Shown here: positions 27,298-41,496 of the stretch, piece by piece
Layout of the letters: each line of letters begins with the position of its first letter
How positions within the stretch are numbered: position 1 is the stretch's first letter
NCBI GenBank assembly: GCA_001775055.1
Contig: MFBU01000022.1
Span: forward strand, 3,278-67,277
Length of the DNA: 64,000 bases
Reading direction: 5' to 3'
DNA from: Candidatus Curtissbacteria bacterium RIFCSPLOWO2_02_41_11
GTDB taxonomy: Bacteria > Patescibacteriota > Microgenomatia > Curtissbacterales > GWA2-41-24
Made by a program: the position numbers and the translations under genes
The notes under the pieces: generated by a model
What the model was told of the DNA's origin: nothing
Database searches by the model: none
Seen by the model: only the letters and a program-made list of their open reading frames with translations

Positions 27298-27741
27298 TTA
27301 CGAACGGGCTACAATAAAAATACCAAAAAGCATCACTACTATACCAACTATTCTTATAAAAGAAACATCCTCATTTAAAAATTTTATAGAACCAATGGTA
27401 GTAAACATAAAAACTATCGTTGCAAAAATTGGATAAGCCCGTGAGAGGTCATTAAATGTTAATACACGAAGCCAAATTAAAAAAGAAAGGCCATAAAGGC
27501 CAAGTCCTGCCAGGATAAATGGATTTGCCGCAGCTTTCGATATTTCAAGAAAAAGTTTTGTCAAGTTTCCACTCAAACCACCAAATGATAAAACCCCTTT
27601 TTTAAGAAGAATATTTGCCGTCACATTAAAAGTAACGCTTGTCAGTAAAAGAGCGTAAAAGTTTTGGAAAAAACTCATGGTGTGATCATACCATTGACAG
27701 CTGACAACTGACAACTGACCCTTCGATGGACTCAGGGTCAT
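27298..27741 (-). CDS. SMR/EamA-like 4-TM membrane protein (ArnE/ArnF-like lipid-linked sugar flippase subunit candidate). The start is uncertain (Met at 27741 or internal Met at ~27678).
   Basis: The core is about 125 aa with 4 hydrophobic helices. It lies immediately upstream of the DPM1-like GT2. The first 21 codons of the track ORF run through a GC-rich heptamer-repeat element. Confidence 0.4.
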   Translation of the reverse strand: MTLSPSKGQLSVVSCQWYDHTMSFFQNFYALLLTSVTFNVTANILLKKGVLSFGGLSGNLTKLFLEISKAAANPFILAGLGLYGLSFLIWLRVLTFNDLSRAYPIFATIVFMFTTIGSIKFLNEDVSFIRIVGIVVMLFGIFIVARS

Positions 27742-27780
27742 CCTGAGCTTGTCGAATGGATGACAACTGACATTTGCTGA
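27695..27780. repeat. GC-rich element with heptamer tandem repeats (CTGACAA-type x4) flanking a unique ~40-nt core. A shortened copy lies inside the CDS at 32255-32287.
   Basis: The sequence 'ttgacagctgacaactgacaactgaccc ... atgacaactgacatttg' is seen directly. The nearly identical 'ttgacaactgacaactgaccactgacatttg' occurs at 32255-32287. Confidence 0.5.
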
Positions 27781-28911: not shown

Positions 28912-28998
28912 TTTTCTACATTCGTATGATTAGTATGAATTCGTATATTTGTATCGATGCTAATCTACTAATGGATGCTACTGATACGAATTTTAATC
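28912..28998 (-). promoter_or_regulatory. Intergenic region with ATTCGTAT (x2) and ATACGAAT half-sites, related to 12765-12858
   Basis: It shares TTAGTATGAATTCGTATATT, GATGCTAAT and ATACGAATT words with the 12765-12858 spacer. It lies upstream of the PIG-V-like gene start at 28911. Confidence 0.35.
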
Positions 28999-30258: not shown

Positions 30259-31023
30259 CTAGCGGCGTTCCCAATATTTGACATACGCGTAGAAGTGGTG
30301 TGCCGCCGAAAATAAAGCCCAGACAAACCCCCTAAAACCATCAACATAACCCCGATGTCTAACAAAAATATCGAAAAAAGTGACAAGTGGCTTTAGAACC
30401 ATGTAGTAAAAAACCGGCCAAGGCCCCCTACCCGGATCTATCTCTCTAAGCTTTTGAGCAGTTTGATCTGTATAACGGTCGGCTCGATAAAGGTATCTGG
30501 CAAATGAGGGATCGGCCATGTGAAGAATGTCGTTTTTTAGATACCCTACTTCCCCATCAATTGCAACCTGTTCATGAACACTAACTTCGGGAAGCCTGCC
30601 TTTGCCTCGTCTAAAAAGCCTAATCACACTATCAGGATAAGCTCCGCCCTTTGTTAAATAACCGCCTAAAAACCAATTGCGACGATTGATCCAAAAACCG
30701 TTCTCTTTGGGGTTTTTAGAGATAATTCCTTTGATCTCACCGACTAATTCTTTACTGACCCTTTCATCGGCATCCATTAGAAAAATCCAGTCGCTAGTGC
30801 AATTATCTATAGCTAAATTTTTATTAATGTGAAACATTGGTTTATTAGTTGTTTTAATAATTTTTGCACCCAGATTCTCTGCCAGTTCTCTGGTTCTGTC
30901 TGTTGATGACCCGTCAGCTACCACTATCTCATCGGCAAAATTTTTTAAAGACTCGATACAATCAACAATATTTTCCTCCTCATTAAATGTTGCCAGTGCA
31001 GCTGAAATTTTTATCTTTTTCAT
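30259..31023 (-). CDS. GT2-family glycosyltransferase (WaaE/KdtX-like subfamily); paralog of 51411-52172 and 56118-57023
   Basis: The motif 'ISAALATFNEEENIVDCIESLKNFADEIVVADGSSTDRT...MDADER' is present. The shared C-terminal 'GG.YPD...RLFRRGKG' motif links the three paralogs. Confidence 0.65.
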   Translation of the reverse strand: MKKIKISAALATFNEEENIVDCIESLKNFADEIVVADGSSTDRTRELAENLGAKIIKTTNKPMFHINKNLAIDNCTSDWIFLMDADERVSKELVGEIKGIISKNPKENGFWINRRNWFLGGYLTKGGAYPDSVIRLFRRGKGRLPEVSVHEQVAIDGEVGYLKNDILHMADPSFARYLYRADRYTDQTAQKLREIDPGRGPWPVFYYMVLKPLVTFFDIFVRHRGYVDGFRGFVWALFSAAHHFYAYVKYWERR

Positions 31024-32621
31024 TTTGGATGACCTATTTTAATCGCTTCTTTTCCGTTAGGATAATAAATTGTTTCAATGACTTCAAAGCCGCCGGGGAA
31101 ATTTCCGCTATCGGCAATAAAAAGCTCACTGGGAGTTGTCGGCGGTTTGGTGTCGAAGTAATATTTGTCAAAGTTTTGCCTCGTACCGCTTTGTTGATAA
31201 CTCCTGGGGTCATACTTAGTATTAAAAAGCCAGAACACGTACGCCTGTTCGATTGAATGATCGACATTAATTTTAGTGTATTGATTTTTGATTTTCTCGG
31301 ATTCTAGAACAGCTTCCTTATATCCATACTGCCAAAAATCTGCCTTGTCGTATGGATAATGTCTCCAGTAGTTATGAAGGTAAACTATGATTGATACACC
31401 AATCCATAAGATATAAAAATATTGAACAGGTTTTTTAAGTAAAAACTCCATAGAAAAAATTGAAACCAGCGCATAGGCACTAATGATCTGAAGCGCTGGG
31501 TCCATCGGTAGAGACCGGTTACCATGCGGATTAGGAACAGCCGGTGTTGCAGGAATTGGGGCAATCAGAAGCCATGCAAGAAGAAAGGCTGAAGTTTTAT
31601 TGCGATTTCTAACAAGCAAAAAGATACCATATAAAACTAGAGGAAATTGAAAAAGATAGACCATCCCTATATTTCCAATATGATGCCTGAAATTATCATC
31701 GCCTTTAGTGAAAAGAAAATTAAAATCAAAATGAGAAAGATAATTGCCAAACCATGTTTGGCCAATAACAAATCTTCTGTTATGAATATATTTGCCGAGC
31801 TTCGATCCCCTTTCCTGATCTTCTAGAATAAATTTTATTGATTTTTCGATATCCTCAAGTCTTGGTCTGCCAGTGGTAACTTCAAATCTTTGTAAGATTA
31901 CTTTTGGCGGTATTAATATTACAAGCGGCAGTCCGATTAGAATAGTAATGATGATAAAAATACCTAGATACCTTTTAGAAACGGTAAGTATCTCTTTTCT
32001 CCAAATAAAAAATGTTGCTATAAAAAGTAGCGGTACAAAAATCCGCTCTGAATGATAGGTATAAGTAGAAATCCCTAAAAATATGCCGCTTACTATTAAC
32101 CATCTTCTACTGGCTAACCCATATAAAAATGCAGTAATGGCTGCGACTGCAAAAAAAAGGCCAACCGTAGCCTCAAAACCGACTCGAGAAAATTGCAAGT
32201 GCCAAGGCGAAATGGCCAACATTAGCATAGATAGAAGAGCGATTGACTCACTCTTGACAACTGACAACTGACCACTGACATTTGACTTTTCAAAGATTTT
32301 TCTGGCTAAAAAATACATTGCTGGAACTGTCAAAAAACCAAAAAATGCGGAAGGAAGTCTTGCGGCAAATGGGGTTAGACCAAAAATTGCCACTGTCACT
32401 ACATTCAAATACATGTATAGAGGGGGTTTATAATCATCAAAGGAGCGATTGGTAATCGGCAAAAAGTTGCCGTATTCATCCCGTCCAGTTTTAAGAATCG
32501 AGTAGGCATTGTAAGCATTACTGTTTTCATCCCAATCCAAACTTAGTGGAATTTCTCCTAATTTATAAAATCTCAAAATAAAAGCCAAAACTAAAATCGC
32601 CCAAAAGATTTTTTTTGTCAT
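31020..32621 (-). CDS. ArnT/PMT-like GT-C glycosyltransferase, tandem paralog 1 of 5
   Basis: There are about 12 TM helices. The segment 'LDWDENSNAYNAYSILKTGRDEYGNFLPI' is the loop-1 DE motif. 'ISPWHLQFSRVGFEA' is conserved across the paralogs. The C-terminal soluble domain is about 120 aa. Confidence 0.65.
   Translation of the reverse strand: MTKKIFWAILVLAFILRFYKLGEIPLSLDWDENSNAYNAYSILKTGRDEYGNFLPITNRSFDDYKPPLYMYLNVVTVAIFGLTPFAARLPSAFFGFLTVPAMYFLARKIFEKSNVSGQLSVVKSESIALLSMLMLAISPWHLQFSRVGFEATVGLFFAVAAITAFLYGLASRRWLIVSGIFLGISTYTYHSERIFVPLLFIATFFIWRKEILTVSKRYLGIFIIITILIGLPLVILIPPKVILQRFEVTTGRPRLEDIEKSIKFILEDQERGSKLGKYIHNRRFVIGQTWFGNYLSHFDFNFLFTKGDDNFRHHIGNIGMVYLFQFPLVLYGIFLLVRNRNKTSAFLLAWLLIAPIPATPAVPNPHGNRSLPMDPALQIISAYALVSIFSMEFLLKKPVQYFYILWIGVSIIVYLHNYWRHYPYDKADFWQYGYKEAVLESEKIKNQYTKINVDHSIEQAYVFWLFNTKYDPRSYQQSGTRQNFDKYYFDTKPPTTPSELFIADSGNFPGGFEVIETIYYPNGKEAIKIGHPK
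32255..32287. repeat. In-frame heptamer tandem repeat (CTGACAA-type x4-5) inside ArnT-like paralog 1, encoding SGQLSVVK
   Basis: 'ttgacaactgacaactgaccactgacatttg' is seen directly. It is related to 27695-27780 and 59217-59236. Confidence 0.5.
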
Positions 32622-34399
32622 GGTAATTTGACCTGACTGACATCATAGATTTCAAAAATTGTGTCGCCTCGCAAATCATCTATAGTGTAGATTGGCGGTT
32701 TAGGAAACTCGATTTCTTTTTCCCCCGCAACAATTAACGTTTTTGTCGGTAGACGATCGATCCCTGGTACTGAGTCGACAAAATCGTATTTTCCGATGCT
32801 ATCAAGTATTACCCAACCGTCCTGGGATTTATGTCTTTGGGCATTTTGAATAAAGTAAGCCGGGTTAACCTTTGCAAAATAGAGATACTGCATATATTGA
32901 TGACCATAGTCAATTTTTCTTGAAATGACAATCTTGTCGTATTCCTGTTCTTTTGAGGCAAGATAGTTAAAAAGCTCCTTGTACCCGAATCTTTGAAAAC
33001 GGCTGGTAAAATATGGCTCACTGTAAAACATATCAGGTATCAACTTAACTACTGATCCTAAAATAGTGATAGTCAATACGATAATAAAAATATTTTTAAA
33101 GAATTTTGACTTTAATGAAGCTACAAAAGTATAAATGCCAAAGGCAACAATGATCTCAAGCGATGGCATAATCAGATTAATTCTTCCATAATTACCAGAT
33201 CCGGCAAAGGAAGCGCCTATTGGCACAAAAAGCAGCCAAGGTATTAATATTTTTAGTGCTTGATTTTTTTGCTTTATAAGTAAAAATATCCCCAAAATTA
33301 AAAATGGTAACTCAAACAAGTAAACTACACTTCTGGTGCTAAATGACTGGAAACCAGATGGATTTGCTTTATCAAAATAAGTCTTAAAAGATAAATTCCC
33401 AGCATAATTGCTAATATAAGTTGAAGCAAAAGTTAAAAATTTATTGTAGGTTAATGTACAAAAAATATTTGGCAGATGTTCTTTACAAACACCGCGCCTC
33501 TCATTTATATCAGCATTGATTCCAGCTCGAGCCACCCCGGAAATAAAACTCTCCTGAAGAAATCTCGACTGACCCTTAAAGGTTAGTACTGTAGGCAGGA
33601 GAGGTAAAAACAATATAAAGGCCAAAATCAAATTCTTGGCTAAATATACTTTTGGTATTTTAAACTGCTGTCTAAACGAGTAGATCACTACTGATATAAA
33701 CAGTGGCAAAAAAACCCAAGCAGATCGATAAACATAAAAAGAAATAACAAAACCTAAAAAAGAAAAGGTAATAAATTTTTTATTTTTTAAACCTACTAAG
33801 AAAAAGTAAGTTGAGATGGTTATAAAGAAAACTAATAAATCAGACTCAAAAGCATTTCTTGATGCCGCTATATGCCAGGGTGAAATTGCCAGAAGAAATG
33901 CAGCTACGAGGGCTATGACTTCGTTGCGGGTCCTGTCAGTCGTTTCCTTCCCGCCAGTGCTCGCTTTGTGCAAGTTCGTTATTTTACTTTGATTCCATAT
34001 AGAAGCTCCGCGCTGTCGGGAACCTTCCCACAACTGCCACCCGCTCCTGTCTTCGAATAGTTTTTTCGTCAATAAATAAGTAGCAAAGACTGCAAAAACT
34101 CCAAACAAGGCTGATGGGAATCGCGTTGCAAATTCATTCATACCGAAGAAAAATTGAGATATAGCTGTGAGGTAAAGATAGACTACAAGCTTCCAGTCAC
34201 CAAAACTTTCGAAAGCAGGAAAGGGTAAAAACCTGCCCCACTCATCCATGCCGGTTTTTAAAATCGAATAGGCATTATAGCCAAAAGCAGCTTCGTCATC
34301 GTTAAATCCAACTGGAATACTTGCCAGATTTATAAAACGAAGAAGAATTGCTACTGTAATTATCGAAATTATGATTAAATTATTTTTGAGATACTTCAT
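32618..34399 (-). CDS. ArnT/PMT-like GT-C glycosyltransferase, tandem paralog 2 of 5 (carries a 45-aa GC-rich insert)
   Basis: The motifs 'GFNDDEAAFGYNAYSILKTGMDEWGRFLP' and 'ISPWHIAASRNAFES' are present. An insert 'RSGWQLWEGSRQRGASIWNQSKITNLHKASTGGKETTDRTRNE' lies between the conserved blocks. Confidence 0.65.
   Translation of the reverse strand: MKYLKNNLIIISIITVAILLRFINLASIPVGFNDDEAAFGYNAYSILKTGMDEWGRFLPFPAFESFGDWKLVVYLYLTAISQFFFGMNEFATRFPSALFGVFAVFATYLLTKKLFEDRSGWQLWEGSRQRGASIWNQSKITNLHKASTGGKETTDRTRNEVIALVAAFLLAISPWHIAASRNAFESDLLVFFITISTYFFLVGLKNKKFITFSFLGFVISFYVYRSAWVFLPLFISVVIYSFRQQFKIPKVYLAKNLILAFILFLPLLPTVLTFKGQSRFLQESFISGVARAGINADINERRGVCKEHLPNIFCTLTYNKFLTFASTYISNYAGNLSFKTYFDKANPSGFQSFSTRSVVYLFELPFLILGIFLLIKQKNQALKILIPWLLFVPIGASFAGSGNYGRINLIMPSLEIIVAFGIYTFVASLKSKFFKNIFIIVLTITILGSVVKLIPDMFYSEPYFTSRFQRFGYKELFNYLASKEQEYDKIVISRKIDYGHQYMQYLYFAKVNPAYFIQNAQRHKSQDGWVILDSIGKYDFVDSVPGIDRLPTKTLIVAGEKEIEFPKPPIYTIDDLRGDTIFEIYDVSQVKLP
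33905..34060. repeat. GC-rich ~150-nt island embedded in-frame in an AT-rich CDS (insert of paralog 2)
   Basis: There is a local composition shift (e.g. 'gcgggtcctgtcagtcgtttccttcccgccagtgctcgc', 'gctccgcgctgtcgggaaccttcccacaactgccacccgctcc'). The flanking sequence is otherwise AT-rich. Confidence 0.4.
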
Positions 34400-34401
34400 T
34401 A

Positions 34402-35910
34402 TTAAGGAACTACTTCATAAAACCGCATAAAACTATTACCTCTACCCTTTTGGTATTTGCCAATTAATTTAAGACGAGGGTTACCCGGGTCATCAGGAAG
34501 GTTTTGGTTTTCGTTAAAGACAAAAAAAGTCTTTTTAACTTTGGCAGCTTCCAAAACCTGCTGTGGAATATCCCTAACTGGCCAGAATCCGGTAATCTGG
34601 ATATTTGGATTACTATAAAAGTAAATTTGAATAGCAAAAGGTAAAAGCCCAAAGGTGCCTTCAGTTCCAACATAGACTGGTTGGCTTTTTGTTTCATGTT
34701 TTAGGATTGCCACAATTTCCTCCACACCATAACCGGCCGGCCAGTCATTTAAGTATTGACCAAGATCTGCATCGGCAATATTGGCCTTTGGAGGTTCTGT
34801 TAGTAATCTATATGAATTGATAGCCGGAAAAACAAAAATGATCGCAAAAATCACCCACAAATATTTCAAGTAATTTTTCCACCTAATTAAATTTATTACA
34901 CCAAAAGATACTAGGATAACTATATAAGGGAAATAAAAAAGCATAAAACGAGGATATAAAACTTTATTAAAAATACTCTCTGCCAGAAACGGCGCCAAAG
35001 CATAAACCGAAAGCAAAATAATTACCCCCTTTCGCCTAATTAAACCCCATGTAATAACCAAAACGGCAATAATTGTCAGCGGCCAGCCATTATATTGAAC
35101 AAACCATGAAATTAAGGCATGAAGATTGCTGGGCAATTGAATAAATGGGTTATTTATAATTTCGTTAAAAGATCTGATAAATTCAGATTCTTTACGCTCA
35201 ATCATATAAAACAGTGGCGAGAGTCTTAAACTATTGTAAATTACCTGTGAGAGCAAAAAAGTAACAACTGAAAAGATAACCCATTTAAATAATCTAAAAC
35301 TGTAATCTCTACTCTTGAAATTAAAAACCAATAGAGAAAAAGGGAGTAGATACAAAAAAAGGATGCCTGAAGATTTAGTAATCATTGTTAGTCCAATAGC
35401 AAAACTGGCAAGCATGGCAGTTTCAAATCTTGGATCTTTGGCCATCTTTATCGAAAAGTAAACTGCCCAAATACCCAACATGGTAAGCAGAGAATCAAAA
35501 AGGGCCATTCGGTCATACAGGAGCGTGAAGGGTAAAATGACATATAAAAAGGCCGCAAGTTTGGCCACTTTCTCAGAAAATAACAGTCTGGCTAAGAAAT
35601 AGATTCCTACCAGAGAACCAAACCCTGCAAAAACAGAAACGAGTCTTCCGGCTATTAACGGATCAGGGATAAATTGCTGAAAAATTGCTGCAATCCAAAT
35701 GAATAAAGGCTGCTTTCCATCCTCCAGAGAAATAAATCTGTTAGCAGGATCATGGAGTGCTACTTGTGCCCAATAAGTATAAATTGCCTCATCAGTAAAT
35801 ATTGGAACTATTTTTAAATTGATAAGTCTTGTAGCAAAATAAAGTACACTAAAGCTAGACCAAAGGATCAAAGATTGCAGTTGGATTAAAACTACGGGTT
35901 TAGGCTTCAT
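34402..35910 (-). CDS. ArnT-like GT-C glycosyltransferase (PMT_2-type, GT39/GT83-like)
   Basis: The motif 'FTDEAIYTYWAQV' follows TM1, and the protein has about 13 TM helices. It is distinct from the five-paralog family and is inserted between paralogs 2 and 3. Confidence 0.5.
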   Translation of the reverse strand: MKPKPVVLIQLQSLILWSSFSVLYFATRLINLKIVPIFTDEAIYTYWAQVALHDPANRFISLEDGKQPLFIWIAAIFQQFIPDPLIAGRLVSVFAGFGSLVGIYFLARLLFSEKVAKLAAFLYVILPFTLLYDRMALFDSLLTMLGIWAVYFSIKMAKDPRFETAMLASFAIGLTMITKSSGILFLYLLPFSLLVFNFKSRDYSFRLFKWVIFSVVTFLLSQVIYNSLRLSPLFYMIERKESEFIRSFNEIINNPFIQLPSNLHALISWFVQYNGWPLTIIAVLVITWGLIRRKGVIILLSVYALAPFLAESIFNKVLYPRFMLFYFPYIVILVSFGVINLIRWKNYLKYLWVIFAIIFVFPAINSYRLLTEPPKANIADADLGQYLNDWPAGYGVEEIVAILKHETKSQPVYVGTEGTFGLLPFAIQIYFYSNPNIQITGFWPVRDIPQQVLEAAKVKKTFFVFNENQNLPDDPGNPRLKLIGKYQKGRGNSFMRFYEVVP

Positions 35911-37622
35911 CTAATCTCTAATTCTCCGACATCGAATACACTAGTTCCGTCAAGCCTTGAGATTGTCTTAAGTTTTTGAACCGAAGGTGGGAGCGCATTG
36001 GGTGAAGTAACATACAACACCTTACCGGAAACCGAAGTTTCATTTAAACTGTCTGTGAAGCGTAATTTACCAAAACCGTCAACGTCTATAAAAAAGAATT
36101 TGTCTCTTGTAATTTGAGCGCTTTTCCAATACTCCCGAGGATCAAATTGCATATATAATAAAAAGTAAATGTAAGGTCTTCCTTGAGCTTTAGTCACTAC
36201 CACATAATCAACGTCATTGTATCTTGGTTTAATAAATTCTACCGCTTCTTTGTATCCAAACTGCCACTCTCCTGAATAATTTCTCGGCCAGTGAACATAA
36301 TACATATGCAGATAAAATAAAAAGTTAAAAGTAAAAAGTAAAAAGTAAAAAATTATAAAAAGTTTTTTATATCTAATTACTCGATAAAGATAAAATAAGC
36401 CAAAAGCGGCAAGTATTTGAAAAGTAGGCAAGATATGAATCATCCTGAGCGCATGGGGAGTTTCTCGGGCAGTTGCCGGTCCAAACGGTGAAATAAGAAG
36501 CCAACCAATAATTAAAAAGCGATATTTTTGTTTGGTAGCAAATAAAAAGTAGATACCAGCAAGAATAAATAGTAGATCAACATAATAAAGTTCGCCTACT
36601 TCCTGAACAGAAAGCCTTGGATTAACATCGCCTTTTGTAAAAAGGAACCTCGGATTGAATGAATCAAAATAATGGGTGAGATATTCATATGAATAGAATA
36701 GACGCCGGTTATGAATAATGTCTGACCACCAAGAAAAATTGTCTCTTGCGCGATACCGAATTGAGTCATTAATCGGTTGCAGATCTTTAAAAATAGTTAC
36801 TTCATCAAATCTCAGTCTGCCTTCAATAGTTTGGGTTGTAAAAATAAAAAGAGGCCAAAATAAAATACTAGTAATTAAGGCTGTTATTAAAACAATTTTG
36901 ATTTGGGCAAAAACCTGTTTTCGAAATTGAATCGCTAGTACTAAAAGAATAAAAGGGACAAACAAGCGTTGGCCTGTAAAAGTATACATCCCGGCAAGAA
37001 ACGAAAGAACAGACGGCAAAATCCATAATGGATTATCTTGAGCAAATTTCAGAAACAGCCAAATACCAAGAACTGAGAAAAAAAGACCCAGATTTGCTTC
37101 AAACGCGCCTCTTGAAAATTGAAGATGCCAAGGGGAAATAGCCAGGAAAAAGGCGGATAGTAAAGCAATTGTTTCAGAAGTACTAAAGGTACGAGAAGTA
37201 CCAGAAGTACGAGAGGTTAAGTTCAGAGATTGCTTTTCGTACCTTTCATACTTTTCGTACTTGTGATACTTTTCTACAAAGAGTTTTTTGGCCAGAAAAT
37301 ATGTCAATAAAACTGTCAAAACACCAAAAAAAGCAGATGGAAATCTAATTGTAAATTCAGTTAGGCCAAAGGCGGCAATTGAAGGCACTGTCGCATAGAT
37401 ATAGCCTGGTGGTTTGTAATCACCGAATGCTGCAAAGTTGGTAATTGGTAAAAATTTACCGTGTTCATCATGACCAGTTTTTAAAATTGAGTAGGCATTA
37501 TAACCAAGTGATGCCTCGTCCCAATAAAGAGAAGGTGGAACAGATCCGAGTTTATAAAACCTTAATACTGCCGCAATGAAAATAATAACGATAAGTATAT
37601 ATTTACTTAATTTTTTGGGCAT
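35907..37622 (-). CDS. ArnT/PMT-like GT-C glycosyltransferase, tandem paralog 3 of 5 (carries a repeat-hairpin insert)
   Basis: The motifs 'LYWDEASLGYNAYSILKTGHDEHGKFLPI' and 'ISPWHLQFSRGAFEA' are present. An insert 'KYHKYEKYERYEKQSLNLTSRTSGTSRTFSTSE' lies between the conserved blocks. Confidence 0.65.
   Translation of the reverse strand: MPKKLSKYILIVIIFIAAVLRFYKLGSVPPSLYWDEASLGYNAYSILKTGHDEHGKFLPITNFAAFGDYKPPGYIYATVPSIAAFGLTEFTIRFPSAFFGVLTVLLTYFLAKKLFVEKYHKYEKYERYEKQSLNLTSRTSGTSRTFSTSETIALLSAFFLAISPWHLQFSRGAFEANLGLFFSVLGIWLFLKFAQDNPLWILPSVLSFLAGMYTFTGQRLFVPFILLVLAIQFRKQVFAQIKIVLITALITSILFWPLFIFTTQTIEGRLRFDEVTIFKDLQPINDSIRYRARDNFSWWSDIIHNRRLFYSYEYLTHYFDSFNPRFLFTKGDVNPRLSVQEVGELYYVDLLFILAGIYFLFATKQKYRFLIIGWLLISPFGPATARETPHALRMIHILPTFQILAAFGLFYLYRVIRYKKLFIIFYFLLFTFNFLFYLHMYYVHWPRNYSGEWQFGYKEAVEFIKPRYNDVDYVVVTKAQGRPYIYFLLYMQFDPREYWKSAQITRDKFFFIDVDGFGKLRFTDSLNETSVSGKVLYVTSPNALPPSVQKLKTISRLDGTSVFDVGELEIR
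37176..37274. repeat. Inverted pair of 9-nt tandem repeats (GTACGAGAA-type arms) forming a ~100-nt imperfect hairpin, in-frame within paralog 3
   Basis: The left arm is 'ggtacgagaagtaccagaagtacgagag'. The right arm, 'cttttcgtacctttcatacttttcgtacttgtgatacttttc', is its approximate reverse complement. Confidence 0.5.
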
Positions 37623-37658
37623 GTTTATAAAAATTTATAATTAATCATAACAAATTTG

Positions 37659-38234
37659 CTAATTAAAAAAGATCTCATTACAAATTGAATTCATCTGCCA
37701 ACCGAAAATAAAATACCAGAAAGACATAATTACCAAGAGGATAAATACTATTTTAGCTAATTTTGTTTTTAGAAAAAGATCAATTCCCCAGAGAGAAAAG
37801 CTATACCAGGATATTACCAGAAGAAAAAAAGAGGCTTTTGAACTTAGAGTAAAAATTGCAATAAATGATGCGATTAAAATCAATATAAAATGGAATTTTG
37901 CTAAATACTTTCTTTTTTTAAAAACTTCTAAAAAGGCAGTTACTACTAGAATTAAGCCTACTGGACCTAAAAACTCCCCTAAGAATCTTGGCTGAAAAGT
38001 TGAAGCGAAAGATTTAGATAACTCAAAAATACCAACAGTTACCTTATTGTGAAACAACCTAGAAATATTCCTATCAACTCCCAAATCAGTATTGACATTA
38101 GTTTCAACACTAACTTTTATAGAAAGAGGGTTAAAGTAAAAACTTAAAAACTTTTTGCACCCAGTAGTTTGCCAACCTCTAAATGAAAAAAGAGAGAATA
38201 AAACGATAATAAAAAGAATCTTAATTTTGTCCAT
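37659..38234 (-). CDS. Small hydrophobic protein (191 aa); possible remnant or accessory subunit between ArnT-like paralogs
   Basis: An N-terminal signal-like helix is followed by a ~70-aa hydrophilic stretch and 3 TM helices. No recognisable motif was found. Confidence 0.25.
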   Translation of the reverse strand: MDKIKILFIIVLFSLFSFRGWQTTGCKKFLSFYFNPLSIKVSVETNVNTDLGVDRNISRLFHNKVTVGIFELSKSFASTFQPRFLGEFLGPVGLILVVTAFLEVFKKRKYLAKFHFILILIASFIAIFTLSSKASFFLLVISWYSFSLWGIDLFLKTKLAKIVFILLVIMSFWYFIFGWQMNSICNEIFFN

Positions 38235-39855
38235 TTACCTCCCAGAGGGTGTAAATATGTCTGCCGACTGAATCATCAACGGCAGCCAAAAAATTACCGT
38301 CTACTTTTTTCCATGAGGGAGCAACATAAAGAATTCTTCCCTGCCAGCCGGCAGGCAGGGCTTTATCGTAGATATTGACATCATCTGAAATAAAGACATA
38401 TTTATCGAAAGCATCTCTAGTACCGCCTGAATTTATAAATTTCTGCGGGTCATATTTTTGATAAAAAAGCAGATAGATATACGGTACCTGATTAATGTTG
38501 GTAACATAAACTTTATTAAATTGGTCTTGATATTTTTGCACTTGAGCAACCATTGCTTTGTAACCGTCTTGCCAGTCAGCTGCAAATTTTTTGGGATAGT
38601 GGATCAAAAGTAAATGCAAATAAGTTAAAAATGAATAGCCAATAATCACTATCATTATTATTTTTACTAGCAGCAATTTTTTTTGAGAAAAAATTAAATA
38701 GGCTCCAAATCCCGAAAAGAATGCTAAGGGAATCGCTATCTGGAGAGTTCTGTATGCATGAGGCGAAGGAGTAACAATGATTGCTGGAATGGGCGCTAAA
38801 ATTAACCAAGAAAACATTATTTTTTTTGTTTGCGCATTTAACTTTTTAAAAGCGATAATTGAAACTATCAATAAAATTCCTTCAAATAAATAAATTTGAC
38901 CCATATCGACCTGTGAGTGCCTCCCTATCTGATCACCTTTAAAAAACAAGAAGCTAGGAGAAAAATGATCAATGTAGGTATTAAATGCCAAATAGCTAAA
39001 ATAGAAAGGCCAGTACCAGTACTTTGACAAAAACCTAAGAGGCTTTTTAGACTTCTGATCATAATCAATACGGTTTGTTTCAAATCCGGCATAACTGAAC
39101 GCCGATTGAGAAATTGCTCTAGAGCGACCCTCTTTCGAAATTGTAAAAATTATGATCGGAAAAATTAGTATCAATGCTAAAAGTGCTGGCAATATCAATT
39201 TCGCGGCTATCTTTTTGACAACTTCCAGATAAATTAAAAGAAGTGAAATCACAAATAGAGGTGTAAAAATTCGATAAGCGTGGTAAAAATACATAGATAA
39301 AGTGAAAAGTCCCGCCGTCGCTAAAGCTATGGCGGGCAAGAAAAAGGCAGACCGAGGCTTCGTCTTTCGATCATCGATTAGAAACAAGAAAAAATAAACG
39401 GCAGAAGTTACGAAGAAAAGACCTACGGTTGATTCAAAACCAGCTCTGGAAAACTGTATATGCCAAGGTGAAATTGCCAGAAAAAAAGTACAAAATAGAG
39501 AAAGCCTAATATTTTTAGTCAATTTTTTAACAATAAAGAAAAAGACAATTATGGTCAAAGACCCAAAGAAGGCACTCGGGAAACGAACGGCAAATTCATT
39601 AAGGCCAAAAACAGCAATAGATAGAACTAGAAGATAGTGATAACCTGGCAATTTCCAATCACCGAAACTTTCAAAAAATAACGGCAAAGTAACGCCATGA
39701 TGATCCTTCCCTGTTTTAAGAATTGAATAGGCATCATAACCAAATACGGCTTCATCCCAATAAAGTCCTGGAGGATTGATACCCAATTTATAAAACCTCA
39801 AAATAAAAGCAGTAAATATGATTAAAATTAATAGAGTTATTTGGAATCTCTTCAT
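38221..39855 (-). CDS. ArnT/PMT-like GT-C glycosyltransferase, tandem paralog 4 of 5
   Basis: The motifs 'LYWDEAVFGYDAYSILKTGKDHHGVTLPL' and 'ISPWHIQFSRAGFES' are present, with no large insert. Confidence 0.65.
   Translation of the reverse strand: MKRFQITLLILIIFTAFILRFYKLGINPPGLYWDEAVFGYDAYSILKTGKDHHGVTLPLFFESFGDWKLPGYHYLLVLSIAVFGLNEFAVRFPSAFFGSLTIIVFFFIVKKLTKNIRLSLFCTFFLAISPWHIQFSRAGFESTVGLFFVTSAVYFFLFLIDDRKTKPRSAFFLPAIALATAGLFTLSMYFYHAYRIFTPLFVISLLLIYLEVVKKIAAKLILPALLALILIFPIIIFTISKEGRSRAISQSAFSYAGFETNRIDYDQKSKKPLRFLSKYWYWPFYFSYLAFNTYIDHFSPSFLFFKGDQIGRHSQVDMGQIYLFEGILLIVSIIAFKKLNAQTKKIMFSWLILAPIPAIIVTPSPHAYRTLQIAIPLAFFSGFGAYLIFSQKKLLLVKIIMIVIIGYSFLTYLHLLLIHYPKKFAADWQDGYKAMVAQVQKYQDQFNKVYVTNINQVPYIYLLFYQKYDPQKFINSGGTRDAFDKYVFISDDVNIYDKALPAGWQGRILYVAPSWKKVDGNFLAAVDDSVGRHIYTLWEVNGQN
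39311..39337. repeat. 27-nt GC-rich palindromic motif (CCCGCC-N15-GGCGGG) that is 24/27 identical to 59233-59259 in an unrelated gene
   Basis: 'cccgccgtcgctaaagctatggcgggc' here compares with 'cccgccttcgctaaagcttcggcgggc' at 59233. Both are in-frame and encode PA(I/E)AL(A)(T/K)AG. Confidence 0.5.
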
Positions 39856-39873
39856 TGATGACGCTATTAATTA

Positions 39874-41496
39874 TTAACTACTAACTATATATATCGCCGG
39901 TTCACCGTTAAGATAATAAACGATTTTCAAAATCTTGATATTTGATGGGAATTCTGAAGGTAAACCGACAAATAAAGTTTTAGCCTCTTTTTGTTGTTTA
40001 TCAAAATCAATTGGTTTAAAGAAATATTTGTCGAATTTGTTTTTATCCTCCAAATATCCTCCAGAAACTGTACCGCCTTCAGTAAGATATTTTTGAGGAT
40101 CATACTTGAGGTAATACAGCCAAAATTCGTGTGATTGATCTATTTTAGTTGAAACAATAATTCTATCATAATTATTTTTAACACTTTCACTAAATAATGC
40201 AGCCTCCCTGCGCCCATAAAGCCAGCTCTTGGAGTACTCAATTGGCATATGGACATAATACTGGTGAAGGTAAAAAGCAAAATTTATAAAAAGAGCAGTC
40301 GCAGTTAAAATCAAATACAATCTTTTAAATCTGACATATTTATAAAATATGTAGACTCCAATTGCCGTAAATATTTGGTAAGTTGGCAGATAAATTTCAC
40401 TACGAAGCGCATGCGGTACACCCCAAGTTACCGAAGAGGCAACTGGCGCAATTAAAAACCACCAAAAAATAATTATTTTTGGCTTAGTTTCAAATTTTTT
40501 TCTAATTAAAAAATAGACACCGGCCAAAACAAAGGGTAAATCCCAAAGATAAAGAAGTCCAATCTGTGGGGCATGGTGTCTATCCATGTCGGCAGTAAAA
40601 AATAAATAAGTTGGTTTGAGATGAGAAAGATAGTTTTCGACAAGTATGGGAATATAGACAAAACGGCGGTTGTGAAGAATTCGGCCAACTGTTAACTGAC
40701 CTGATTGCTCATCTTGGGCTATTAACTGCGATGCCTTATATTGCGGTGAAAGATCGGCAAATATCGTAGTTCCTTTATAACGGAGCTGGCCTGAAATTGA
40801 GAAAATGATAGGAATAAGAACTGCTGAAAAAATAATGGCGATTATGGCCGGAACGACTAAGTATTTTTTATTTTTAAGAAGCCAGTCTTTAGAAATAAAT
40901 AAAAGTATAATAGAAAAAATAGGAATAAAAACCCGGGCATTGTGATACATAAAAAGATTAACACCAAAAGCGATAGCTGTAAGAGACATCCAAGCAGTAA
41001 TTCTCAGTCCCTTAGCTCTAATTCCCTTTAAAAAAGCCCAAGTGCCTAAAACAGACCAAAAAATTGCACTATTTGTTTCAAAAGCTACTCTTGAAAATTG
41101 GAGATGCCAAGGAGAGATGGCTAAAAATAATGAAGACAAAAAGGCAATAGTTCTATTTTTGAATAATTCAAAGACCATAAAATAAGTGAAGATAACAGTC
41201 AAAACTCCAAGTGCCGCTGAAGGAAATCTGACAGCAAAGTCATTTAAGCCGAAAGCAGCAATCGAAGGAACAACTAAATATGTGTAAATTGGAGGTTTGT
41301 AATCGTCAAACGATCTAAAAGAAAGTGGCAGTCTATATCCATACTCATCTCTACCTGTTTTTAAAATTGAATAGGCATTATAACCGTGAGCGGTTTCGTC
41401 CCAATTAAGACTCGGAGGATTTTGGCCGAGTTGATAAAATCTAAGGACTGTTGCCAAGATAATAATGAAAATCAAACTGAGATTATTTTTTAACAT
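39874..41496 (-). CDS. ArnT/PMT-like GT-C glycosyltransferase, tandem paralog 5 of 5
   Basis: The motifs 'LNWDETAHGYNAYSILKTGRDEYGYRLPL' and 'ISPWHLQFSRVAFET' are present. Confidence 0.65.
   Translation of the reverse strand: MLKNNLSLIFIIILATVLRFYQLGQNPPSLNWDETAHGYNAYSILKTGRDEYGYRLPLSFRSFDDYKPPIYTYLVVPSIAAFGLNDFAVRFPSAALGVLTVIFTYFMVFELFKNRTIAFLSSLFLAISPWHLQFSRVAFETNSAIFWSVLGTWAFLKGIRAKGLRITAWMSLTAIAFGVNLFMYHNARVFIPIFSIILLFISKDWLLKNKKYLVVPAIIAIIFSAVLIPIIFSISGQLRYKGTTIFADLSPQYKASQLIAQDEQSGQLTVGRILHNRRFVYIPILVENYLSHLKPTYLFFTADMDRHHAPQIGLLYLWDLPFVLAGVYFLIRKKFETKPKIIIFWWFLIAPVASSVTWGVPHALRSEIYLPTYQIFTAIGVYIFYKYVRFKRLYLILTATALFINFAFYLHQYYVHMPIEYSKSWLYGRREAALFSESVKNNYDRIIVSTKIDQSHEFWLYYLKYDPQKYLTEGGTVSGGYLEDKNKFDKYFFKPIDFDKQQKEAKTLFVGLPSEFPSNIKILKIVYYLNGEPAIYIVSS

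What the first reader, a model, noticed from the sequence alone, without database searches (positions are those of the whole stretch)
31020..41496. Tandem array of five ArnT/PMT-like paralogs sharing one insertion hotspot with different foreign-composition inserts
Genes 31020, 32618, 35907, 38221 and 39874 are clear paralogs. All share Y(N/D)AYSILKTG.DE.G..LP and ISPWH(L/I)QFSR..FE. Between the conserved KK(L/I)F and (I/T)ALLSAF..AISPWH blocks, paralogs 4 and 5 have no insert. Paralog 1 has a 12-aa insert encoded by CTGACAA heptamers. Paralog 2 has a 45-aa insert encoded by a GC-rich 150-nt island. Paralog 3 has a 33-aa insert encoded by an inverted 9-mer tandem hairpin. Three unrelated, compositionally foreign, repeat-structured inserts at the same position in sister genes is not expected from simple duplication-divergence. 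It suggests either a permissive loop repeatedly targeted by small mobile repeats or a diversification mechanism acting on this loop.
Basis: seen in the sequence. Interest (0 to 1): 0.75.

Follow-up and report, generated by a model that had tools for sequence, protein, structure and literature searches.

The report
Repeat-invaded loop in glycosyltransferase paralogs
Five sister membrane glycosyltransferase genes of a Curtissbacteria (CPR) bacterium really do carry different extra segments in the same short loop. The segments come from 7- and 9-base tandem repeats and small GC-rich palindromic elements that also sit in-frame in housekeeping genes of related bacteria, much like the "selfish" palindromic elements of Rickettsia.

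Summary
Five GT-C (PMT_2) paralogs, 29-41% identical, share one indel site between KK[LI]F and IALxxxxLAISPWH. P4 and P5 have the basal 4-5 residues there, P1 has 16, P2 has 46 and P3 has 36.

The site is most likely the first cytoplasmic loop, opposite the active site. The P2 insert is disordered in an AlphaFold model.

The inserts are recent. Orthologs in three related Curtissbacteria genomes lack them or carry different ones. A closely related P3 allele (89-94% identical) has an empty site, and another lacks two nonamers.

- **P2 insert:** a roughly 119-nt hairpin-forming element with imperfect terminal inverted repeats. About 20 further copies were found, in both orientations, in-frame in CarB, RadA, TopA, LeuRS, transketolase and other genes.
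- **P1 heptamers (GTCAGTT):** these recur in intergenic DNA of the window, where a GC-rich palindrome is nested in register inside the array. A longer version of that palindrome sits in the P4 ortholog of another genome.
- **P3 insert:** a 96-nt nonamer palindrome, probably generated in place.

Heptamer arrays are about 140-fold over-represented in these lineages.

Verdict: a permissive loop colonised again and again by slippage repeats and RPE-like mini-elements. It is not a loop-specific diversification system. One strain shows a one-heptamer frameshift elsewhere in P3, so phase variation stays open.

The parts
31020..32621 (-). P1, a GT-C (PMT_2) glycosyltransferase paralog of 533 aa
   Evidence: ORF. 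Pfam PMT_2 7.5e-10 and PMT 1.4e-5. The exact protein is KKQ89838.1 and others, from Candidatus Curtissbacteria.
32244..32291 (-). P1 loop insert. It encodes EKSNVSGQLSVVKSES and contains GTCAGTT heptamers at 32255-32280, with no GC-rich core.
   Evidence: The same 23-nt 5' junction and the same heptamers flank a 114-nt palindrome in the P4 ortholog of L007. P1 orthologs carry other heptamers at this site.
32618..34399 (-). P2, a GT-C paralog of 593 aa
   Evidence: Orthologs are mostly 545-565 aa.
33926..34044 (-). Family-B palindromic mini-element (GCGGGTGGCAGT...GACAGGACCCGC, about 119 nt) lying in-frame in the P2 loop. The whole insert is 33917-34054.
   Evidence: GC 0.54. Long hairpin. Homologous copies in L003, L004, L007 and L028 and in about 20 metagenome contigs. 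Consensus hairpin with 7 compensatory pairs. pLDDT below 50 in the model.
34402..35910 (-). A more distant PMT_2-family GT-C gene (502 aa) interleaved in the array. It is not one of the five paralogs.
   Evidence: Pfam PMT_2 7.9e-14. Its position is conserved in related arrays.
35907..37622 (-). P3, a GT-C paralog of 571 aa
   Evidence: The exact protein is present in 66 collection blocks.
37181..37276 (-). P3 loop insert of 96 nt: a left array of GTAYGAAAR nonamers, an 18-nt spacer, and an inverted right array.
   Evidence: The orthologous site is empty in L085 (TTCTTTGAAAG|TGAGG). Variant P0146 lacks 18 nt, which is two nonamers. No other copy was found in the window or the loci.
36314..36351 (-). 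A second repeat-built segment in P3: (TTTTTAC)x5.4 heptamers encoding the last TM helix, IFYFLLFTFNFLF
   Evidence: Strain contig L221 is identical across P3 and differs there only by deletion of exactly one heptamer. This shifts the frame and leaves a 458-aa product.
38221..39855 (-). P4, a GT-C paralog of 544 aa with the basal loop (TKNIR)
39302..39350 (-). Family-C GC-rich hairpin element (CTGCCTTTTTCTTGCCCGCCATAGCTTTAGCGACGGCGGGACTTTTCAC) lying in-frame in P4 at aa 169-185. This is a different position from the hotspot.
   Evidence: P4 has extra residues here relative to its paralogs. A near-identical 49-mer sits at aa ~440 of the P3 ortholog in L007.
39874..41496 (-). P5, a GT-C paralog of 540 aa with the basal loop (KNRT)
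   Evidence: Its L004 ortholog carries a remnant of the family-B 3' end in the same loop.
27695..27775 (-). Intergenic copy of the P1-type repeat: GTCAGTT heptamers with a 41-nt GC-rich palindrome (27720-27760) nested in register
   Evidence: Removing the core plus one GTCA restores a perfect (TGTCAGT)5 array. The orthologous sites in L007 and L004 have heptamers only. There is a promoter-like TTGTCA-18-TATGAT.
46456..46528 (-). An ATTCACT heptamer array split by a 37-39-nt GC-rich core, in-frame near the C-terminus of a GT2 gene
59218..59262 (-). GC-rich hairpin GCCCGCCGAAGCTTTAGCGAAGGCGGG followed by GTCAATT heptamers, in-frame in a 620-aa membrane-protein ORF

Best explanation
**What it is.** The five genes are old paralogs of a GT-C (PMT_2 family) membrane glycosyltransferase. 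They lie in a roughly 64-kb envelope-glycosylation island of a Candidatus Curtissbacteria (CPR/Microgenomates) genome. The variable site is a very short loop that joins two transmembrane helices on the cytoplasmic face. It is one helix away from the extracytoplasmic catalytic SPWH..SR..FE motif, so extra residues there are tolerated.

**How the inserts arise.** In this lineage two linked DNA processes add sequence wherever it is tolerated.
1. Replication slippage builds short tandem arrays, mainly of 7-nt units and also of 9-nt units.
2. Small GC-rich, hairpin-forming, non-autonomous elements of 27-135 nt spread through the genome. Some have about 30-nt imperfect terminal inverted repeats. They are typically found nested inside or next to heptamer arrays.

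Copies that land in-frame and without stop codons in a permissive loop persist and are translated as disordered peptide.

**How they turn over.** They decay by internal deletion, change length by slippage, and are shuffled by homologous recombination between alleles.

**The three inserts as three states of this process.**
- P1 is a heptamer array without a core.
- P2 is a full family-B element.
- P3 is a nonamer array that has undergone an inverted duplication in place.

**Shown:** the common position, the recency, the dispersal of families A, B and C, in-frame occupation of unrelated genes in both orientations, nesting in register, and copy-number polymorphism.

**Inferred:** the cytoplasmic location, translation of the inserts, slippage as the origin of the arrays, arrays acting as landing pads, the in-place origin of the P3 insert, and the (unknown) mobilising enzyme.
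For: **Same site and GT-C identity:**

**Disorder:** residues 119-145 have pLDDT below 50, while the model overall has pLDDT 83.6 and pTM 0.86.

**Cytoplasmic side:**
- A profile alignment puts the site at REVF-DKR-AAV of A. fulgidus AglB, RELW-NQGAG-LLA of STT3B and RRWF-GAR-AAA of ArnT.
- The same alignment puts the family's FE motif on AglB Asp161 and the ArnT catalytic Asp.
- The positive-inside pattern of the loops (KKLF, GLKNKK, SFRQQFK, KQKNQALK, SLKSKFFKN) agrees (sequences).

**Recency:**
- 16 of the 27 P2 orthologs aligned have no insert, including the closest at 68-73% identity. Others carry different inserts at the same column.
- The orthology matrix combined with the loop sequences shows every ortholog group P1-P5 differing between the window, L007, L004 and L085.
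- Among P3 alleles, one has an empty site and one lacks two nonamers.

**Dispersal:**
- The family-A termini and GTCAGTT flanks occur in the P1 loop, in the L007 P4-ortholog loop and in intergenic 27695-27775.
- Family B occurs in loops of other paralogs, once in reverse orientation.
- Family B also occurs in-frame in CarB, RadA, TopA, LeuRS, transketolase, Trp/Tyr-tRNA synthetase, PolI 5'-exonuclease and polyprenyl synthase.
- The family-B alignment has sharp boundaries, unrelated flanks, and a 25-pair hairpin with 7 compensated pairs.

**Nesting in heptamer arrays, in register:**

**Heptamer excess:** 56 arrays of at least 3 copies against 0.4 in shuffles. Period 6 gives 21 and period 8 gives 2.

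**Loop statistics:** 55 of 172 paralogs have an expanded loop. 19 of 157 heptamer arrays lie in the 1.7% of sequence that encodes this loop.

**A parallel hotspot in a housekeeping gene:** RadA, after the Walker A helix.

**Recombination breakpoint at the loop:** 83% identity upstream against 94% downstream.

**No candidate machinery nearby:** there is no transposase, reverse transcriptase or template repeat in the window.
Against: - No mobilising enzyme was identified, and no unambiguous target-site duplication was seen. 'Mobile' therefore rests on distribution only.
- Family-B copies in three different paralogs share nearly the same junction (GAnnAnnGnAGC|GGGTGG). Tolerance alone does not predict this. 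It may indicate site preference or gene conversion between paralogs.
- AAATTGG-type heptamers recur in this loop across paralogs and genomes. This again hints at something more specific than random slippage.
- Only 64 kb of this genome could be read, so the copy number of each family in this organism is unknown.
- The loci examined were chosen around GT-C arrays, so the roughly 7-fold enrichment is not a genome-wide estimate.
- Hairpin energies of the individual inserts are not significant against shuffles (z -1.3 to -1.8).
- The cytoplasmic placement is inferred from weak profile matches (E 2.5e-4 to 0.019) and the positive-inside rule, not from coordinates.
Confidence: 0.68

Rival explanations
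1. True integration hotspot. The DNA of this loop, or a heptamer array seeded there, is a preferred target of the machinery that moves the palindromic elements. Alternatively, inserts are copied between paralogs by short-patch gene conversion through the conserved flanks. Either way the recurrence would be mutational, not just a survival filter.
For: - Family-B 5' junctions are nearly the same in window P2, the gene after P0004 in L003 and the L007 P3 ortholog.
- A 23-nt junction is identical between window P1 and the L007 P4 ortholog, although orthologs in the two genomes are only about 66-75% identical in protein.
- AAATTGG heptamers are found almost only in this loop.
- GC-rich cores always lie inside or beside heptamer arrays, also in RadA (L195) and L086.
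- There is a recombination breakpoint at the loop.
Against: - The same families also sit in many unrelated genes and in intergenic DNA with unrelated flanks.
- Insertion points inside the loop differ by several codons between cases.
- Related Curtissbacteria-like genomes (L010, L035, L054, L058) have 4-5 paralogs with conserved flanks and no inserts.
Confidence: 0.2
2. Contingency (phase-variation) system. The heptamer arrays in these surface-glycosylation genes are kept because gain or loss of one unit switches the enzyme on or off. This would vary the cell-surface glycans, for example against phages or hosts.
For: - The units are not multiples of 3, and the arrays sit in glycosyltransferase genes and upstream of genes.
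- A strain contig identical across P3 has exactly one heptamer deleted at 36314-36351, giving a frameshifted P3.
- Heptanucleotide coding repeats that switch a surface-glycan-modifying enzyme are known, for example NeuO of E. coli K1. This is my own knowledge; the paper is listed but was not read.
Against: - The loop arrays are short and imperfect (2.6-5.7 copies).
- All 7 members of the P1 cluster are 533 aa, and two 17-22 kb strain contigs show no indels.
- Arrays and elements occur equally in housekeeping genes such as RadA and CarB, where switching makes no sense.
- The P2 and P3 inserts are in-frame-stable sequence (a 119-nt element; 9-nt units).
- The single 7-nt variant could be a pseudogenising mutation.
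Confidence: 0.08
3. Ancient, functional lineage-specific loops, for example docking sites for cytoplasmic partners, that merely look repetitive.
For: All insert-bearing genes keep intact ORFs and catalytic motifs. The P1 and P2 inserts are invariant among near-identical strains.
Against: - The inserts are absent from or replaced in the closest orthologs.
- One P3 allele has an empty site.
- The P2 insert is predicted to be disordered.
- The same sequence occurs in unrelated proteins and in reverse orientation.
Confidence: 0.02
4. Assembly or gene-calling artefact at repeats.
For: Related assemblies break at these elements. There is a run of N in L004, a split gene in L005, and a 360-aa truncated P3 in one MAG.
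Against: Identical inserts are present in dozens of independent assemblies from NCBI, JGI, ENA and Logan.
Confidence: 0.01

Closest known systems
Rickettsia palindromic elements (RPEs; Ogata et al. 2000 and 2002, as summarised in the MITE review PMC10969869)
   Same: These are elements of roughly 100-150 bp that form hairpins and are dispersed through the genome. They are inserted in-frame in many unrelated protein-coding genes, including housekeeping genes, and add a peptide that the fold tolerates. No transposase is known. Family B here is 112-135 nt and occurs in both orientations in CarB, RadA, TopA, LeuRS and other genes.
   Different: - The host lineage is different (CPR/Microgenomates rather than Alphaproteobacteria).
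- Sequence relatedness to RPE families was not tested and is not expected.
- The elements here are modular: families A, B and C share end modules.
- They are physically associated with tandem heptamer arrays, which is not a described RPE feature.
- Repeated occupation of one loop across paralogs is also not a described RPE feature.
Classical bacterial MITEs (terminal inverted repeats plus target-site duplication, mobilised in trans by an IS transposase)
   Same: Small size, about 30-nt imperfect terminal inverted repeats, a variable centre, internal-deletion derivatives (L028, L200), and many copies with unrelated flanks.
   Different: No clear target-site duplication and no parent IS or transposase was found. 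The elements are strongly compatible with open reading frames.
Tandem heptanucleotide repeats in bacteria. Heptamers are the most abundant long simple-sequence-repeat class (Mrazek 2007, as cited in PMC4679880). Examples are the TAACTGA repeats of Beggiatoaceae, Cyanobacteria and Bacteroidetes (PMC4679880) and, from my own memory, the cyanobacterial STRR repeats and the small dispersed repeats (SDRs) of Elhai et al. 2008, which nest in such arrays.
   Same: - Short arrays of 7-nt units lie upstream of start codons and, in the stop-free orientation, inside ORFs.
- A slippage origin has been proposed for them.
- The window's unit TCAGTTG differs at one base from TCAGTTA, the reverse complement of TAACTGA.
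- Small hairpin repeats nested in heptamer arrays resemble what I recall of the SDRs. That paper was not available.
   Different: Many different heptamer units are used here. 138 of the 157 arrays examined lie inside ORFs of at least 150 aa. They build loops and even TM helices of enzymes. The lineage (CPR) is one where this has not been described in the papers I could search.
Phase-variable glycosyltransferase and surface-modification genes (contingency loci; heptanucleotide example NeuO of E. coli K1, own knowledge)
   Same: Repeats whose unit is not a multiple of 3 lie inside glycan-synthesis genes. One natural change of a single unit causes a frameshift.
   Different: The arrays are short and degenerate. 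No variation was seen at the loop arrays. The same repeats occur in essential genes.
ArnT (GT83), PMT (GT39) and STT3/PglB/AglB (GT66) GT-C enzymes
   Same: The GT-C fold, an N-terminal acidic motif after TM1 (WDE), a second acidic motif aligned with AglB Asp161 and the ArnT catalytic Asp, and a C-terminal extracytoplasmic domain.
   Different: - Similarity is only remote: Foldseek TM 0.38-0.48 and 11-14% identity; profile E-values 2.5e-4 to 0.019.
- No MIR domain was found, so these are not canonical PMTs.
- There is no WWDYG-type motif match.
- The substrate is unknown.

Membership tests
GT-C glycosyltransferase superfamily, Pfam PMT_2 (PF13231) family | Sequence match to the PMT_2/PMT profiles above the curated threshold | tested here: met
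   All five paralogs score 27.6-48.5 bits against PMT_2 (cutoff 26.1). Four also pass the PMT cutoff.
GT-C glycosyltransferase superfamily, Pfam PMT_2 (PF13231) family | Multi-span GT-C fold with a C-terminal soluble domain | tested here: met
   AF2 model with pLDDT 83.6 and pTM 0.86. Foldseek hits to STT3A/B, AglB, PglB, ArnT, ALG9/12 and Pmt4, E 2.5e-7 to 4e-3.
GT-C glycosyltransferase superfamily, Pfam PMT_2 (PF13231) family | Conserved acidic residues in the first extracytoplasmic loop, plus a second acidic motif | tested here: met
   D31/E32 (WDE) and F149/E150 are invariant in the five paralogs. The FE motif aligns with AglB D161 and the ArnT catalytic Asp (residue roles are from my own knowledge).
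GT-C glycosyltransferase superfamily, Pfam PMT_2 (PF13231) family | Use of a polyprenyl-phosphate-linked sugar donor | not testable with these tools
   Requires a biochemical assay.
ArnT (GT83) proper | Close sequence relationship to ArnT, and a role in lipid A modification | tested here: not met
   Only a weak partial profile match to 5ezm (E 5.8e-3, 89 residues). The five-paralog profile finds no PDB sequence at E of 0.01 or better. Function was not testable.
Protein O-mannosyltransferase (GT39) proper | A MIR domain in the large luminal loop | tested here: not met
   No MIR family appears among the Pfam hits. Matches to Pmt4 and Pmt1-Pmt2 are partial (TM 0.26-0.37).
RPE-like protein-coding palindromic elements | A short (about 100-150 bp) sequence able to form a long hairpin | tested here: met
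   Family B is 112-135 nt. The consensus hairpin has 25 pairs, 7 with compensatory changes. For the single copy alone the energy z-score is only -1.84.
RPE-like protein-coding palindromic elements | Multiple dispersed copies at non-homologous sites | tested here: met
   About 20 further copies with unrelated flanks in metagenome contigs and related Curtissbacteria genomes. Within this organism only 64 kb could be searched, and it holds one full copy.
RPE-like protein-coding palindromic elements | In-frame insertion in unrelated protein-coding genes, read through without stops | tested here: met
   CarB, RadA, TopA, LeuRS, transketolase, Trp/Tyr-RS, PolI 5'-exonuclease, polyprenyl synthase and GT-C, in both orientations.
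RPE-like protein-coding palindromic elements | Sequence homology to one of the described Rickettsia RPE families | not tested
I therefore claim 'works like', not 'member of'.
RPE-like protein-coding palindromic elements | The insert is translated and tolerated on the protein surface | tested here: inconclusive
   The ORFs are intact, the catalytic motifs are kept and the insert is predicted to be disordered. There is no proteomic evidence.
Classical MITE | Terminal inverted repeats | tested here: met
   GGGTGGCAGTCGTGGAAGGGTTCCCGACAGCGC against the reverse complement of the 3' end, GGGTCCTGTCAGTCGTTTCCTTCCCGCCAGTGC.
Classical MITE | Target-site duplication of fixed length | tested here: inconclusive
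   Family-B flanks show no consistent duplication; some extend the palindrome. Family-A cores are flanked by a GTCA duplication within the heptamer array.
Classical MITE | A related autonomous IS with a transposase | not tested
   None is present in the 64-kb window. The rest of the genome was not available.
Phase-variable contingency locus | A tandem repeat with a unit that is not a multiple of 3, in the coding region or promoter | tested here: met
   Heptamers at 32255-32280, 36314-36351 and 27695-27719.
Phase-variable contingency locus | Copy-number polymorphism among near-identical strains that toggles the reading frame | tested here: inconclusive
   Met once, at 36314-36351 (one unit deleted in L221). 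Not seen at the P1 loop array.
Diversity-generating retroelement target | A nearby reverse transcriptase and a template repeat with adenine-specific differences | tested here: not met
   There is no RT among the Pfam annotations of the window's genes. No template-like repeat of any insert occurs in the window.

The most novel reading that the evidence does not exclude
Curtissbacteria, and probably other Microgenomates, host a previously undescribed, modular superfamily of ORF-compatible palindromic mini-elements. These elements nest in tandem heptamer arrays and colonise protein-coding genes, essential ones included. This would be a CPR counterpart of the Rickettsia palindromic elements. In it, heptamer arrays act both as landing pads and as raw material for new loops and even transmembrane segments. 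In glycosylation genes they may also act as slippage switches that turn individual glycosyltransferases on and off.
Probability: 0.45. Interest if true: 0.78.

Novelty: new variant of a known kind. Interest (0 to 1): 0.66.

Why it matters
In-frame 'selfish' palindromic DNA in genes has essentially one textbook case, Rickettsia. A second, independent case in ultra-small CPR bacteria would show that compact genomes with little intergenic space push small repeats into permissive protein loops. It would also show that such DNA can build new protein segments.

There are practical consequences too.
- **Assembly and annotation:** these elements break assemblies and gene calls. Examples are N-runs, split genes and truncated proteins in public MAGs.
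- **Protein comparison:** they inflate apparent protein divergence.
- **Loop mapping:** they mark which loops of GT-C enzymes, RadA, CarB and others tolerate insertions.
- **Strain tracking:** they could serve as markers for distinguishing strains.

If the heptamer arrays do switch genes by slippage, this would be a first indication of phase-variable surface glycosylation in CPR bacteria. These bacteria live attached to host cells and are exposed to phages.

Tried and rejected
- **Rfam.** Scanning the whole window at gathering thresholds, and the P2 insert at E of 1 or better, gave no RNA family. The window has no tRNAs.
- **Viral contigs.** The family-B 3' motif gave 13 exact 16-mer hits, but none extended into a real element. 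There is no evidence of phage origin.
- **Chance hits in the metagenome scan.** The scan reported 120 stretches. About two dozen loci carried the element. I did not examine the remaining hits individually; most come from contigs with 45% GC or more and are probably chance 16-mer matches.
- **Peptide profile search.** A profile of the reverse-orientation peptide against 5.8 billion proteins returned only 3 short ORFs. A 41-aa query is too short for that database, so this is uninformative.
- **Clustering of GC-rich islands.** Across loci this mostly recovered conserved coding segments, not elements.
- **Open-frame count for family B.** 30 of 84 frames were open against 24% in shuffles. This was not informative, because the copies were trimmed in different registers.
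- **Strain comparison.** Two near-identical strain contigs showed no indels.
- **Literature access.** The Elhai 2008 SDR paper could not be read, so that comparison rests on memory.
- **Rejected readings.** A diversity-generating retroelement (DGR) was rejected because there is no RT and no template repeat. Inteins and introns were rejected because there are no splicing motifs and the elements occur in both orientations. A CRISPR or TIGR array was rejected because there is no array architecture. An ancient functional loop was rejected because the closest orthologs lack the inserts.

Full report
**1. The observation**

The window is 34.5% GC. It has no tRNA genes and no Rfam matches. Exact protein look-ups identify the organism as Candidatus Curtissbacteria, a member of the CPR/Microgenomates.

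ORFs at 31020-32621 (P1), 32618-34399 (P2), 35907-37622 (P3), 38221-39855 (P4) and 39874-41496 (P5) all lie on the minus strand. They are 29-41% identical to P1 and all match Pfam PMT_2/PMT.

The alignment has one dominant indel block, between KK[LI]F and IALxxxxLAISPWH. P4 and P5 have 5 and 4 residues there, P1 has 16, P2 has 46 and P3 has 36.

At the DNA level:
- The P1 insert holds 3.7 GTCAGTT heptamers.
- The P2 insert is a 138-nt stretch at 54% GC.
- The P3 insert consists of two inverted nonamer arrays, with 37-nt arms that are 76% complementary.

The description is therefore correct, with one exception. Only the P2 insert is compositionally foreign.

The sequences are not assembly noise. 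The exact P3 protein is on record in 66 collection blocks. Two independent contigs of 17-22 kb are 99.97-99.99% identical to the window, with no indels.

**2. Where the site lies in the protein**

An AlphaFold2 model of P2, built on 28 orthologs, is confident overall (pLDDT 83.6, pTM 0.86). The insert is the exception: residues 119-145 have pLDDT below 50.

Foldseek places the model in the GT-C fold, with hits to STT3, AglB, PglB, ArnT, ALG9/12 and Pmt4. No close solved relative exists.

A profile of the P2 orthologs aligns weakly with three solved proteins: STT3B (E 2.5e-4), ArnT (5.8e-3) and A. fulgidus AglB (0.019). In these alignments the indel site matches RELW-NQGAG-LLA, RRWF-GAR-AAA and REVF-DKR-AAV respectively. 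The family's invariant FE motif falls on AglB Asp161 and the ArnT catalytic Asp. The roles of those residues are from my own knowledge.

That acidic motif faces the outside of the cell. The helix before it must therefore run from inside to outside, and the short loop before that helix must be cytoplasmic. The positive-inside pattern of all the other loops agrees.

I therefore infer, but have not shown, that the hotspot is the first cytoplasmic loop. This is a plausible place for tolerated extra peptide and an unlikely target for surface diversification.

**3. Are the inserts old or recent?**

Of the 27 P2 orthologs I aligned, 16 have no insert, including the closest at 68-73% identity. The best P2 hits are mostly 545-565 aa, against 593 aa for P2. 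Several others carry different inserts at exactly the same column.

Syntenic arrays were fetched from related Curtissbacteria (L003, L004, L006, L007, L085), and orthology was established by reciprocal identity. Each ortholog group differs from genome to genome:

| Paralog | Window | L007 | L004 | L085 |
|---|---|---|---|---|
| P1 | GTCAGTT heptamers | AAATGGA heptamers | CAATTTT heptamers with a GC-rich core | not covered |
| P2 | family-B element | nothing | GAAATTG heptamers | not covered |
| P3 | nonamer palindrome | a family-B-like 5' end, further hairpins and GAAATTT heptamers | nothing | nothing |
| P4 | nothing | a 114-nt palindrome inside GTCAGTG/T heptamers | another GC-rich insert | basal-length loop (sequence not inspected) |
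| P5 | nothing | not covered | a remnant of the family-B 3' end | basal-length loop (sequence not inspected) |

Variation also exists within the 90%-identity cluster of P3:
- One allele (P0141, on contig L085) has an empty site, TTCTTTGAAAG|TGAGG, where the window has 96 extra bases.
- Another allele (P0146) lacks exactly 18 nt, which is two nonamers.

**4. What the inserts are**

*P1 type.* The heptamer GTCAGTT also occurs at 27695-27775, upstream of a small gene. There a 41-nt GC-rich palindrome sits inside the array. Removing that core plus one GTCA restores a perfectly periodic (TGTCAGT)5 array. The orthologous intergenic sites in L007 and L004 contain heptamers only.

The P4 ortholog of L007 has the same palindrome termini (TCCATTCGAC...GAGTCCAYCGAAGG) around a longer 114-nt core. 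The flanks match the window's P1 insert for 23 nt on the 5' side. The P1 insert is therefore the core-less state of a heptamer-plus-palindrome unit, which I call family A.

*P2 type (family B).* Motif and BLAST searches found copies in several places:
- in the same loop of other paralogs in L003 (one of them reversed), L004, L007 and L028;
- after a metagenome scan, in about two dozen low-GC contigs.

An alignment of 14 copies shows sharp ends (GCGGGTGGCAGTCGTGGAAGGG ... GAGCACTGGCGGGAAGGAAACGACTGACAGGACCCGC). It also shows about 30-nt imperfect terminal inverted repeats, a variable centre and unrelated flanks. The consensus hairpin has 25 pairs, 7 of which are kept through compensatory changes.

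The host ORFs were confirmed by Pfam. They are carbamoyl-phosphate synthase, RadA, topoisomerase I, LeuRS, transketolase, a Trp/Tyr-tRNA synthetase, the PolI 5'-3' exonuclease and polyprenyl synthase. The element is read through in-frame in either orientation. The forward peptide is ...GWQSWKGSRQR...STGGKETTDRTR and the reverse peptide is ...RGPVSRFLPASARSKQKS...LRAVGNPSTTATPR.

Decayed versions exist (L200, L028, L004-1144).

Homologs of the RadA host are all named Curtissbacteria where a name is given. RadA itself shows a hotspot just after the Walker A helix. The baseline there is 3-4 residues, inserts reach about 60, and at least 8 orthologs carry the reversed family-B element.

Families A and B, and a short hairpin family C, share end modules (L086, L107, L138). 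Family C is present in P4 at 39302-39350, at 59234-59260, and in the L007 P3 ortholog at a different protein position.

*P3 type.* No second copy of this insert was found anywhere. The empty allele has GAAAGT at the site, and the nonamer unit is GAAAAGTAY. I infer that the insert grew in place by slippage and then underwent an inverted duplication.

**5. The repeat background**

In 1.5 Mb of related Microgenomates loci, period 7 is the commonest tandem period. With at least 3 copies and at most 1 mismatch there are 56 arrays, against 0.4 in composition-matched shuffles. Period 6 gives 21 and period 8 gives 2.

Of the 157 arrays with at least 2.5 copies, 138 lie inside ORFs of at least 150 aa. 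Nineteen lie in the 1.7% of sequence that encodes this loop.

Other recurrent heptamer-built segments are:
- the last TM helix before YLHxYY, including window 36314-36351 in P3;
- a TM helix of YfhO/PTPS-like GT-C proteins;
- two loops of GT2 enzymes.

GC-rich cores are regularly nested in or beside heptamer arrays. This holds in the window at 46456-46528 and 59218-59262, and outside GT-C genes in L195 and L086.

Of 172 paralogs surveyed, 103 have basal loop spans of 46 aa or less and 55 have spans of 50 aa or more. Some related genomes have no expanded loops at all.

**6. Mechanism**

The best-supported reading is a permissive cytoplasmic loop that is filled again and again by two genome-wide processes:
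- slippage arrays of 7- or 9-nt units;
- small palindromic, non-autonomous elements that associate with those arrays.

In-frame, stop-free copies survive. They then decay, change length and recombine. One recombination breakpoint lies at the loop itself: L085 is 83% identical to the window upstream of the loop and 94% downstream.

Two observations argue for an added mutational component, meaning a preferred target or conversion between paralogs:
- the near-identical junctions of family B in three different paralogs;
- the identical 23-nt junction of family A in two paralogs.

I give that rival 0.2.

A programmed diversification system is not supported. There is no reverse transcriptase, transposase or template repeat in the window, which is entirely a glycosylation island.

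Phase variation stays open as a minor possibility. A strain contig that is identical across P3 has exactly one heptamer deleted at 36314-36351, which truncates P3 to 458 aa. No such variation was seen at the loop arrays.

**7. Comparison with what is known, and novelty**

The closest analogue in how the system works is the Rickettsia palindromic element (review PMC10969869). I did not test sequence membership and I do not claim it.

Tandem heptamers are a known bacterial repeat class. Examples are the TAACTGA repeats of Beggiatoaceae, Cyanobacteria and Bacteroidetes. Heptanucleotides are also the commonest long simple-sequence repeats according to Mrazek 2007, as cited in PMC4679880.

From memory, the nesting of small hairpin repeats inside heptamer arrays resembles the cyanobacterial SDRs.

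Four literature searches found no description of such elements in CPR bacteria.

I classify the finding as a new variant of a known kind. It consists of RPE-like coding palindromes coupled to heptamer arrays in CPR genomes. The GT-C loop is their most visible landing site.

Noticed in passing
window 36314-36351 (P3), and locus L221: The last TM helix of P3 is encoded by 5.4 copies of a TTTTTAC heptamer. A strain contig identical across P3 lacks exactly one unit, which shifts the frame and truncates P3 to 458 aa. The same TM helix is heptamer-built in many paralogs of other Microgenomates.
   Followed up: yes
window 39302-39350 (P4); L007 6402-6450: A 49-nt GC-rich hairpin element encodes AFFL(P/S)AIALATAGL(F/L)T. 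It lies in P4 at aa 169-185 and, nearly identical, at aa ~440 of the P3 ortholog of another genome. The same DNA thus supplies TM-like segments at two different protein positions.
   Followed up: partly
window 59218-59262: The hairpin GCCCGCCGAAGCTTTAGCGAAGGCGGG followed by GTCAATT heptamers lies in-frame in a 620-aa membrane ORF that has no Pfam match.
   Followed up: partly
window 46456-46528: An ATTCACT heptamer array is split in register by a 37-39-nt GC-rich core, inside the C-terminal end of a GT2 gene.
   Followed up: partly
window 27685-27714 (minus strand): One heptamer of the intergenic array supplies a -35-like TTGTCA, placed 18 nt before TG-TATGAT and just upstream of the ATG at ~27676. 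The annotated start of the 147-aa ORF (27741) lies inside the palindrome and is probably wrong. The promoter scan as a whole was at chance level.
   Followed up: partly
window 12810-12855 and 28913-28958: Two 46-nt stretches of ATTCGTATG/ATTAGTATG-type nonamer repeats are 83% identical. Each lies just upstream of the start of a glycosyltransferase gene on the minus strand. The TACGAA core resembles the P3 nonamer.
   Followed up: no
window 1-64000: The whole window is a glycosylation island. It contains GT1, GT2 and GT4 genes, at least 10 GT-C-type genes (PMT_2, PTPS_related, YfhO, PIG-V-like), an ABC-2 exporter, a flippase, UDP-glucose dehydrogenase, an epimerase and methyltransferases. No mobile-element genes are present.
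   Followed up: partly
L085 4001-5608 compared with window 35907-37622: The P3 allele without the insert is 83% identical to the window upstream of the loop and 94% downstream. The neighbouring P4 and P5 genes are only about 75% identical. This points to recent homologous exchange with a breakpoint at the loop.
   Followed up: partly
L195, L138 and RadA homologs P0163-P0271: RadA of Curtissbacteria has its own insertion hotspot after the Walker A helix. It is occupied by reversed family-B elements, a hybrid of families C and B, or other low-complexity inserts. L138 and L195 carry different element interiors at the same site.
   Followed up: partly
L004 ~5295-5310; L005 4789-6473; protein KKQ89841.1: Public assemblies break at these elements. 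There is a run of N inside a family-B copy, the gene is split in two in a sister assembly, and P3 is annotated as a 360-aa fragment in one MAG.
   Followed up: no
window 27695-27719 and 32255-32280: The unit TCAGTTG differs by one base from TCAGTTA, the reverse complement of the TAACTGA repeats described in Beggiatoaceae, Cyanobacteria and Bacteroidetes. This may be coincidence.
   Followed up: no
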